A DNA stretch of 64,000 nt from Escherichia coli. GTDB lineage: Bacteria; Pseudomonadota; Gammaproteobacteria; Enterobacterales; Enterobacteriaceae. Each line of letters opens with the position of its first letter. Within the stretch, counting starts at the first letter, position 1. Made by a program: the position numbers and the translations under genes. Below are positions 17,711 to 18,308 of this stretch, piece by piece. The DNA is taken from the NCBI RefSeq assembly GCF_017348835.2, contig NZ_CP071375.1, one strand, 5' to 3'. Under the pieces are notes generated by a model. It saw only the letters and a program-made list of their open reading frames with translations, searched no databases and was not told the origin of the DNA.

Positions 17711-17767
17711 GGTGCCATCGGGCAAAATTAGCTCGGAGTAACAGGTTTTGATTATTTCAGGAAGCGA

Positions 17768-17945
17768 TGGTGGTGGGGGAAGGATTACTCAGCGCTGCGC
17801 GCTTCGCCCTTCGGGTCGTTGCCTGCGGCAACGCTCTCTCGCTGGCGCTCGAGTCGAACCTTGGTCGAAGCTTCTCGTCCTTCCCCGCTTGGGCAGAATA
17901 TTAATTTACGGATTCGCTTGAGAGTTCAGGTACTTTTGAAAGTGA
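17768..17945 (-). repeat. tpr: tyrT-distal repeat unit (about 178 bp) carrying a copy of the tRNA-Tyr 3' end; the region is known to encode the small protamine-like Tpr (ORF not delimited here)
   Basis: GATGGTGGTGGGGGAAGGATT recurs at 17768, 17945 and 18064. Confidence 0.5.
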
Positions 17946-18030
17946 TGGTGGTGGGGGAAGGATTCGAACCTTCGAAGTCGATGACGGCAGATTTACAGTC
18001 TGCTCCCTTTGGCCGCTCGGGAACCCCACC
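17946..18030 (-). tRNA. tyrV: tRNA-Tyr (85 nt)
   Basis: Reverse complement reads GGTGGGGTTCCCGAGCGGCCAAAGGGAGCAGACTGTAAATCTGCCGTCATCGACTTCGAAGGTTCGAATCCTTCCCCCACCACCA. Confidence 0.92.
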
Positions 18031-18064
18031 AGGGGTAATTCAAATTTCGAGGTAATGCTTGAGA

Positions 18065-18149
18065 TGGTGGTGGGGGAAGGATTCGAACCTTCGAAGTCGA
18101 TGACGGCAGATTTACAGTCTGCTCCCTTTGGCCGCTCGGGAACCCCACC
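18065..18149 (-). tRNA. tyrT: tRNA-Tyr (85 nt), promoter-proximal copy
   Basis: Sequence identical to the 17946-18030 copy. Confidence 0.92.
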
Positions 18150-18194
18150 ACGGGGTAATGCTTTTTACTGGCCTGCTCCCTTATCGGGAAGCGG

Positions 18195-18230
18195 GGCGCA
18201 TCATATCAAATGACGCGCCGCTGTAAAGTG
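18195..18230 (-). promoter_or_regulatory. tyrT promoter (-35 TTTACA at 18223-18228, -10 TATGAT at 18200-18205, GC-rich discriminator GCGCCCCGCTTCC)
   Basis: Matches the classic stringently controlled tyrT promoter; hexamers read on the minus strand. Confidence 0.75.
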
Positions 18231-18308
18231 TTACGTTGAGAAAAATGAACTGGTTGCGTAATTTTCATCCGTAACGGATTAAAGGTAACCAGTTATTTTT
18301 GCTGGCGA

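What the first reader, a model, noticed from the sequence alone, without database searches (positions are those of the whole stretch)
17760..18235. tyrT-tyrV tandem tRNA locus with downstream repeats carrying tRNA 3'-end copies
Two identical 85-nt tRNA-Tyr genes lie 119 bp apart behind the classic tyrT promoter. The motif GATGGTGGTGGGGGAAGGATT (tRNA 3' end plus flank) occurs three times at 178/119-bp spacing, which shows repeat-mediated duplication history. The distal repeat region is where the small basic Tpr protein is reported, but I could not delimit a convincing ORF by eye.
Basis: partly seen in the sequence, partly recalled or inferred. Interest (0 to 1): 0.3.

Follow-up and report, generated by a model that had tools for sequence, protein, structure and literature searches.

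The report
E. coli tyrT-tyrV tRNA operon, one RtT
This is the well-known E. coli tyrosine-tRNA operon (two identical tRNA genes plus one copy of the RtT trailer RNA) in a common short-array version, and the "Tpr" mini-gene reported there in K-12 has lost its start codon in this strain, so the finding is real but ordinary.

Summary
On the minus strand lie the tyrT promoter (-35 at 18227-18222, -10 at 18205-18200), tyrT (18065-18149), a 34-nt spacer, an identical tyrV (17946-18030) and one 178-nt trailer unit (17768-17945). The trailer holds a full-length RtT RNA (Rfam RF00391, 132 bits) and ends in a copy of the last 19 nt of the tRNA.

The window is 100% identical over this locus to E. coli PE164. 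NCBI's pipeline annotates the same features there.

It differs from K-12, which has an extra RtT-like unit between the two tRNA genes and three distal units. In 18 E. coli strains sampled, distal copy number ran from 0 to 5. Roughly a quarter of complete genomes appear to share the window's layout.

About 105 of 5,426 genomes carry this allele. The other 28 codons are identical to K-12.

Across Enterobacterales, RtT always follows tRNA-Tyr and its helices covary. The Tpr frame is usually cut after 5 codons by changes that keep the RNA paired. This supports an RNA element rather than a protein gene. RtT's function remains unknown. Already known; low interest.

The parts
18200..18227 (-). tyrT promoter: -35 TTTACA (18227-18222), 16-bp spacer, TG-extended -10 TATGAT (18205-18200)
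   Evidence: The consensus scan gives 10 of 12 matches. The sequence is identical to K-12 MG1655. Promoter function is established knowledge for K-12 and was not tested here.
18228..18340 (-). Upstream region of the promoter. In K-12 this is the FIS-dependent upstream activating region. It overlaps the 3' end of purU.
   Evidence: One mismatch to K-12 in 191 nt, at -175. The activating role is taken from my own knowledge of K-12 and was not tested.
18150..18199 (-). G+C-rich discriminator (GCGCCCCGC) and 5' leader of the precursor, ending ...AUUACCCCGU immediately before the mature 5' end
   Evidence: Read from the sequence and identical to K-12. The transcription start was not mapped here.
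18065..18149 (-). tyrT, tRNA-Tyr(GTA), 85 nt, CCA encoded, promoter-proximal
   Evidence: ARAGORN; Rfam tRNA 53.4 bits; annotated tRNA-Tyr in the identical strain PE164.
18031..18064 (-). 34-nt intergenic spacer. K-12 has 209 nt here, including an RtT-like 175-bp unit.
   Evidence: Start-to-start spacing is 119 bp here against 294 bp in K-12.
17946..18030 (-). tyrV, tRNA-Tyr(GTA), identical to tyrT
17768..17945 (-). The single 178-nt trailer repeat unit, running from the base after the tyrV CCA to the next CCA
   Evidence: Unit boundaries and 10-11 differences from each K-12 distal unit. Direct repeat family D2.
17768..17899 (-). RtT RNA element (Rfam RF00391), full length
   Evidence: 132.3 bits against a gathering score of 45, model positions 1-130 of 130. 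Annotated 'RtT sRNA, processed from tyrT transcript' in PE164. Helices are supported by covariation in 135 units.
17768..17786 (-). Copy of the last 19 nt of tRNA-Tyr (AAUCCUUCCCCCACCACCA: 3' part of the T loop, T stem, acceptor strand, ACCA). Its UCCUUCCC segment forms the 3' strand of the RtT closing stem.
   Evidence: Exact matches. Closing stem pairs are columns 15-23 with 118-126, 97.6% paired.
17789..17878 (-). Tpr-homologous reading frame without a start codon: ACG (17878-17876) in place of ATG, then 28 codons identical to K-12 Tpr, then TGA
   Evidence: Translation is [29 protein letters not shown]. The K-12 sequence is PRTL_ECOLI 'Protamine-like protein'. No ORF of at least 20 aa ends at 17789.

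Best explanation
This is the Escherichia coli tyrT operon, read from the minus strand.

A sigma-70 promoter with a G+C-rich discriminator drives one precursor RNA. Its order is leader, tyrT, a 34-nt spacer, tyrV, and a 178-nt trailer unit. The two genes give identical tRNA-Tyr(GUA).

The trailer contains RtT, a structured RNA of about 130 nt. Its closing stem pairs a 5' GGGAAGGA(U) segment with the copied tRNA 3' segment UCCUUCCC. This leaves a CACCACCA tail, so the end of RtT resembles a tRNA acceptor/T-arm minihelix.

By inference from K-12 work, the tRNA-maturation nucleases cut the precursor. RNase P would act at the 5' ends, and endo- and exonucleases at the 3' ends. This would release two tRNAs and one RtT RNA.

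The repeats consist of the 19-21 bp of tRNA 3' end and the 175/178-bp units. They are substrates for unequal recombination or slippage, which explains why strains differ in array size. This strain carries a short array: no spacer unit and one distal unit.

The Tpr frame of K-12 lies inside RtT but cannot be started here, because ATG is ACG. Comparative data indicate that selection acts on the RNA and not on a protein. What RtT does in the cell is not known.
For: Identity of the parts:
- tRNAs.
- RtT at 132 bits, full length.
- Promoter.
- Gene context narI / purU.
- 100% identity over this locus to E. coli PE164, where PGAP annotates the same features.

Repeat-mediated variation:
- K-12 is T-RtT'-T-RtTx3.
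- In 18 sampled strains there were 0 to 5 distal units, a spacer unit in 5, and a single tRNA gene in 2.
- All units are bounded by the same 19-mer at 175/178(179)-bp steps.

RNA rather than protein:
- In 135 distinct RtT units from Enterobacterales, 95.9% of cells pair.
- 14 pairs show compensatory changes in 161 cells, against 27 in shuffles and 12-22 with slid partners.
- The Tpr frame is shorter than 10 codons in 109 of 154 complete units.
- The C/T changes that create its stop codons (CAA to TAA, CGA to TGA) are G-C to G-U changes in the Rfam-type long-range helix.
- 164 of 164 units with held upstream DNA lie within 1.5 kb downstream of a tRNA-Tyr on the same strand.

Missing start:
- ACG at 17878-17876 with no upstream canonical start.
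- The ACG allele is in about 105 of 5,426 genomes, against at least 3,929 with ATG.
Against: No transcription, processing or termination was measured here.

Single-sequence folding of RtT is not clearly better than shuffles, with z = -1.5, so the structure rests on covariation.

Half of the sampled E. coli strains (9 of 18) still keep a 29-codon frame with ATG. Translation of Tpr in those strains is therefore not excluded.

The pattern used to collect units fixed 20 bases of the 5' half. That part of the alignment could not vary, and more divergent units were not sampled.
Confidence: 0.9

Rival explanations
1. The distal unit is a protein-coding gene for the small basic Tpr protein, as proposed for K-12, and RtT is simply its mRNA.
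For: The K-12 first distal unit encodes the 29-aa sequence held in public databases as 'Protamine-like protein' PRTL_ECOLI. Nine of 18 sampled E. coli strains keep at least one ATG-initiated 29-codon frame. ATG occupies this position in 134 of 192 units across species.
Against: In this window the start is ACG, with no alternative canonical start. Only 11 of 34 distal units in the 18 E. coli strains have an open frame, and two strains have no unit at all. Across genera, 109 of 154 units stop after 5 codons, and longer frames differ through indels. The U of the AUG pairs with an A at the base of the closing stem (UA in 122 of 135 units), which can explain its conservation. No NCBIfam model exists for the protein, and PGAP annotates no CDS there in the K-12 record checked.
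Confidence: 0.03
2. The tRNA 3'-end copies are scars of site-specific integration: att-site duplications left by an integrative element that targeted tRNA-Tyr.
For: Partial duplication of a tRNA gene's 3' end is the usual signature of integrase-mediated insertion (my own knowledge). In ST131 EC958 and strain N96, a roughly 7-kb accessory gene cluster sits directly next to the tRNA-Tyr/RtT region.
Against: The material between the copies is only 159 nt. It is a conserved, covarying RNA found in tandem behind tRNA-Tyr throughout Enterobacterales. No integrase is annotated in any locus examined. Copy number changes in exact 175/178-bp steps, as expected for homologous recombination.
Confidence: 0.03
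3. The single-unit array is an assembly artefact: a longer 178-bp tandem array collapsed by short reads.
For: Tandem units with 94% identity or more are prone to collapse, and I cannot see the reads behind the window.
Against: More than 1,650 complete E. coli genomes cover at least 80% of a 2.2-kb query spanning narI to purU. The sampled ones with the same length carry the same single-unit layout. The unit's 5' flank is of the first-unit type and its 3' flank of the last-unit type, as expected for a true one-unit array.
Confidence: 0.04

Closest known systems
E. coli K-12 tyrT operon (tyrT, tyrV, rttR/RtT, tpr). From my own knowledge: Egan and Landy 1978, Rossi et al. 1981, Altman et al. 1981. 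Bosl and Kersten 1991 is cited in PMC3318445 and PMC11623569.
   Same: Same chromosomal site between narI and purU. The promoter and 191-nt upstream region are the same except for one base. The tRNA-Tyr sequence is identical. The 178-bp unit is of the same type and ends in the 19-nt tRNA 3' copy.
   Different: The spacer is 34 bp instead of 209 bp, so there is no RtT-like unit between the genes. There is one distal unit instead of three. The Tpr start codon is ACG instead of ATG.
Rfam RF00391, RtT RNA
   Same: Full-length match at 132.3 bits against a gathering score of 45. The closing stem and both internal hairpins are present.
   Different: One pair at the base of the closing stem is C-A instead of U-A, the same base change that removes the Tpr ATG. 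It costs about 1.6 kcal/mol in the predicted fold. In my 135-unit alignment a further 5-bp hairpin covaries in a stretch that the Rfam consensus line shows as unpaired.
tRNA-precursor spacer or trailer RNAs with a function in trans, e.g. the 3' external transcribed spacer of glyW-cysT-leuZ, which sponges small RNAs (my own knowledge, Lalaouna et al. 2015)
   Same: It is a stable RNA released as a by-product of tRNA operon processing.
   Different: No target or partner of RtT is known, and none was looked for here. This is a lead for how it might work, not a membership claim.
att-site duplications of tRNA 3' ends at integrated genomic islands
   Same: A direct repeat of the last roughly 20 nt of a tRNA gene lies downstream of the gene.
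   Different: No integrase or island lies between the copies. The intervening 159 nt is a conserved structured RNA, and the units are tandem.

Membership tests
tRNA-Tyr (bacterial, class II) | Cloverleaf with GTA anticodon and long variable arm | tested here: met
   ARAGORN finds tRNA-Tyr(gta) twice. The Rfam tRNA model scores 53.4 bits against a gathering score of 29, with an 11-nt variable-arm insertion.
E. coli tyrT operon | tyrT promoter sequence (-35 TTTACA, -10 TATGAT, GCGCCCCGC discriminator) upstream of tandem tRNA-Tyr genes, between narI and purU | tested here: met
   with one mismatch to K-12 in 191 nt.
E. coli tyrT operon | Co-transcription of the tRNAs and trailer, and processing into separate RNAs | not testable with these tools
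   This needs RNA data. It is known for K-12 only from literature I could not open.
K-12-type array (spacer RtT-like unit plus about three distal 178-bp units) | 209-bp tyrT-tyrV spacer and three distal units | tested here: not met
   34-bp spacer and one distal unit. The window is a copy-number variant, not the K-12 form.
RtT RNA (Rfam RF00391) | Score at or above the curated gathering threshold over the whole model | tested here: met
   132.3 bits against 45, model positions 1-130 of 130.
RtT RNA (Rfam RF00391) | Location in the trailer or spacer of a tRNA-Tyr operon, ending in a copy of the tRNA 3' end | tested here: met
   The window unit starts directly after the tyrV CCA and ends in the 19-mer. 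164 of 164 units in other genomes are linked to tRNA-Tyr.
RtT RNA (Rfam RF00391) | Conserved secondary structure | tested here: met
   14 pairs show compensatory changes, and 0 of 500 shuffles reach the observed values on any measure.
Tpr / PRTL_ECOLI protamine-like protein | An open reading frame with a start codon encoding the 29-aa basic peptide | tested here: not met
   ACG replaces ATG, and there is no ATG, GTG or TTG upstream in frame.
Tpr / PRTL_ECOLI protamine-like protein | Conservation of the peptide among relatives | tested here: not met
   109 of 154 units across genera have fewer than 10 codons. 11 of 34 distal units in 18 E. coli strains are open.
Integrative-element att duplication | Integrase gene or island between the tRNA gene and the 3'-end copy | tested here: not met
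   Only 159 nt of RtT lies between the copies, and no integrase is annotated.

The most novel reading that the evidence does not exclude
RtT may be more than a processing by-product. It could be a tRNA-Tyr-linked RNA, conserved across Enterobacterales, whose tRNA-like end lets it act in trans. One possibility is that it competes for tRNA-processing or stringent-response factors. Natural copy number (0 to 5 or more) would then set its dose. Single-copy strains such as this one, and natural zero-copy strains, would make the long-unresolved function of RtT directly testable by a one-step deletion.
Probability: 0.12. Interest if true: 0.5.

Novelty: already known. Interest (0 to 1): 0.12.

Why it matters
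The locus is textbook material, and every part is already annotated in the identical public genome. Three modest points come out of the check.

- The K-12 tpr gene has no start codon in this strain and is not conserved as a protein. The stop-creating changes are exactly those that keep the RNA paired. This argues that tpr should be treated as doubtful.
- The RtT array is a copy-number polymorphism, with 0 to 5 distal units and an optional spacer unit. Strains with one or zero copies are cleaner backgrounds than K-12, which has four copies, for asking what RtT does.
- RtT is tied to tRNA-Tyr across Enterobacterales and has good covariation support, including one hairpin that the Rfam consensus does not show.

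Tried and rejected
- Literature on RtT and Tpr. The key paper (Bosl and Kersten 1991, PMC329039) is not held.
- A hit to the CoCoNuT preprint was a false lead: the current version does not mention RtT.
- Searches for ribosome-profiling evidence on tpr returned only papers where 'TPR' means something else. A search for the 178-bp repeat or Rho termination found nothing relevant.
- NCBIfam scan of Tpr and of the window frame found no family.
- Single-sequence folding of RtT was not significantly better than shuffles, with z = -1.5 and -1.9, so it was not used as evidence.
- My first regular expressions for RtT units missed variants. I replaced them with a BLAST-based tally, which in turn misses most of the diverged spacer units. 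Those were counted from the annotation instead.
- The att-scar idea was rejected because no integrase was found and the intervening sequence is a conserved RNA.
- An antisense small RNA over tRNA-Tyr, reported in a preprint (PMC11623569), finds no support here. The scan shows no plus-strand promoter-like site between 17760 and 18235. This is weak evidence either way.
- Plus-strand ORFs of 45-78 aa across the tRNAs and RtT are mechanical and were given no weight.

Full report
OBSERVATION

ARAGORN finds only two tRNA genes in the whole window. Both are tRNA-Tyr(GTA), 85 nt, at 18065-18149 and 17946-18030. The Rfam tRNA model scores 53.4 bits for each, and the two are identical.

The 21-mer GATGGTGGTGGGGGAAGGATT occurs three times exactly, at 17766, 17944 and 18063. 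None is expected by chance. The spacing is 178 and 119 bp.

Two of these copies are simply the 3' ends of the two tRNA genes with two flanking bases. Only the copy at 17766-17786 is additional. The figure '119 bp apart' is start-to-start; the gap between the genes is 34 bp.

PROMOTER AND CONTEXT

A sigma-70-type site, TTTACA-16 bp-TATGAT with TG before the -10, lies at 18227-18200 on the minus strand. A GCGCCCCGC discriminator and the leader follow it. The 191 nt upstream of the tyrT 5' end differ from K-12 MG1655 at one position, -175.

narI ends at 17584 on the plus strand and purU ends at 18309 on the minus strand. This is the K-12 neighbourhood.

A 771-nt and a 2,245-nt query across the locus are 100% identical to E. 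coli strain PE164. There NCBI's pipeline annotates narI, RtT sRNA, two tRNA-Tyr genes and purU.

THE DOWNSTREAM UNIT

From the base after the tyrV CCA (17945) to 17768 there is one 178-nt unit. Its last 132 nt match Rfam RF00391 (RtT RNA) over the full model at 132.3 bits, against a gathering score of 45.

The unit ends in AATCCTTCCCCCACCACCA, the last 19 nt of tRNA-Tyr. The 5' part of RtT (GGGGAAGGACGAGAAGCTTCGA) is 82% complementary to the tRNA's T-arm/acceptor 3' strand (pair I1).

Within RtT this 5' part pairs with the copied 3' segment to make the closing stem. A CACCACCA tail is left unpaired.

COMPARISON WITH K-12 AND OTHER E. COLI

K-12 has a 209-nt spacer holding a diverged 175-bp RtT-like unit, plus three distal 178-bp units. 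The window has neither the spacer unit nor the two extra distal units.

I fetched 18 E. coli loci, chosen to cover the different match patterns, so they are not a random sample. The results were:
- Distal units ranged from 0 to 5.
- A spacer unit was present in 5 strains.
- Only one tRNA-Tyr gene was present in 2 strains.

I also took a systematic 60-row sample down the ranking of all 5,441 matching records. About 17 rows fit the window's layout and about 20 fit the K-12/O157 spacer-unit layout. The classes of rows I did not fetch are inferred from match length and the listed features.

All unit boundaries fall on the same 19-mer at 175/178(179)-bp steps. This is what unequal homologous recombination or slippage would produce.

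THE TPR QUESTION

The first distal unit of K-12 encodes [29 protein letters not shown]. This exact sequence is PRTL_ECOLI 'Protamine-like protein'.

In the window the same frame runs 17878-17789 and is identical in its other 28 codons, but its first codon is ACG. Going upstream in frame there is no ATG, GTG or TTG before the stop at 17908. No ORF of 20 aa or more ends at 17789. This is why no ORF could be delimited by eye.

I counted the alleles with 41-nt queries centred on the variable base. Every 28-nt seed then has to include that base.
- The ACG allele is found in 105 of 5,426 genomes, many of them O145:H28.
- The ATG allele is found in at least 3,929 genomes.

RNA OR PROTEIN

I scanned one genome per species for a degenerate 27-mer from the RtT 5' half. 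This gave 119 stretches, almost all in Enterobacterales. Genera included Citrobacter, Enterobacter, Klebsiella, Salmonella, Kosakonia, Serratia, Sodalis, Tatumella and Pragia, and units were often in tandem at about 175-bp steps.

Every unit with enough held upstream DNA (164 of 164) lies within 1.5 kb downstream of a tRNA-Tyr(GTA) on the same strand. The 28 others all sit within a few hundred bases of the end of the held DNA.

Of 154 complete units, 109 have a Tpr-position frame of only 5 codons (MRSFD*). Only 22 combine a canonical start with 25 or more codons, and those peptides differ after about codon 10 because of indels.

In contrast, an alignment of 135 distinct units shows the following:
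- 95.9% of cells are paired.
- 14 pairs have compensatory changes, in 161 cells.
- Shuffles give 27 such cells and slid partners give 12-22.
- No shuffle out of 500 reaches the observed value on any measure.

The two internal hairpins covary strongly. For example, columns 47/64 are UA in 83 units, CG in 24 and GC in 21.

The substitutions that create the stop codons are CAA to TAA at column 37 and CGA to TGA at column 96. In the Rfam-type long-range helix these are G-C to G-U changes. They are neutral for the RNA and fatal for the ORF.

The U of the AUG itself pairs with an A at the base of the closing stem, UA in 122 of 135 units. This can account for its conservation. The window's C at that position breaks this pair and costs about 1.6 kcal/mol in the predicted fold.

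Within E. coli the picture is less one-sided. Nine of 18 strains keep at least one ATG-initiated 29-codon frame, in 11 of 34 distal units. So I do not claim that Tpr is never made in K-12. I claim only that it cannot be made by normal initiation here and shows no protein-level conservation.

MECHANISM

Shown here:
- The parts, their order and strand.
- Their identity to annotated features.
- The repeat structure and its polymorphism.
- The RNA-level conservation.

Inferred from established K-12 knowledge (Egan and Landy 1978; Rossi et al. 1981; Altman et al. 1981; Bosl and Kersten 1991, the last cited in PMC3318445 and PMC11623569; none readable here):
- One transcript from the tyrT promoter.
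- Stringent and growth-rate control.
- Processing by tRNA-maturation nucleases that frees RtT.
- Rho-dependent termination in the trailer.

The scan finds no intrinsic terminator on the minus strand between RtT and narI. The function of RtT is unknown. A recent preprint still describes its mode of action as unknown (10.1101/2024.07.17.603846). An earlier survey of 27 genomes already noted loss of rttR in two E. coli lineages (PMC3318445).

VERDICT

The finding is a real feature, correctly identified, and already known. The window carries a common short-array variant of the tyrT operon together with a rare start-codon loss in the doubtful tpr frame. Interest is low.

Noticed in passing
L009 (E. 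coli ST131 EC958) 18701-25582; also L135 (strain N96) 1-2490: A roughly 7-kb, seven-gene lipid-type cluster lies between narI and the tRNA-Tyr locus. Its genes are a KAS III-like protein, an epimerase, an MBL hydrolase, an F390 synthetase-related protein, a PAP2 phosphatase, a sterol desaturase and a fatty acid desaturase. In EC958 it replaces tyrV and all RtT units. In N96 one RtT and both tRNAs remain. No integrase is annotated.
   Followed up: partly
L003 1206-2405 (TUM13066); L133 1329-2309 (HB-Coli0): Insertion sequences (an IS4-family transposase and IS621) are inserted between narI and the RtT unit in some strains with the window's layout. Hits H45 and H46 also list IS4.
   Followed up: no
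A1 columns 99-103 with 108-112 (window about 17790-17803): A 5-bp hairpin near the 3' end of RtT shows compensatory changes at all five pairs (e.g. GC in 98 units and AU in 30). The Rfam consensus line shows this stretch as unpaired. In a subfamily that includes the spacer-type units, the two middle pairs are mismatched.
   Followed up: partly
window 17651-17683: A REP-like palindrome (GTCGGATGCGCTTCGCTTATCCGACCTAC) lies between the narI terminator hairpin (17603-17624, plus strand) and the RtT unit. It might stabilise or end the tyrT transcript. This was not tested.
   Followed up: no
L069 and L057: Assemblies labelled Chryseobacterium sp. 18061 and Martelella alba carry enterobacterial-type RtT units. 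L069 has two tandem units. These are probably mislabelled or contaminated records.
   Followed up: no
window 134-194 (+) and 52709-52802 (-): An rdlD-type antitoxin RNA of an ldr/rdl toxin-antitoxin module and the trp operon leader both score above Rfam gathering thresholds. Their distances from tyrT match my recollection of the K-12 map, which suggests no large insertion in between.
   Followed up: no
L136 (strain GPEC1292), second distal RtT unit: The ACG allele also occurs inside a four-unit array, next to ATG units. It is therefore not confined to single-unit strains and may spread by recombination between units.
   Followed up: no
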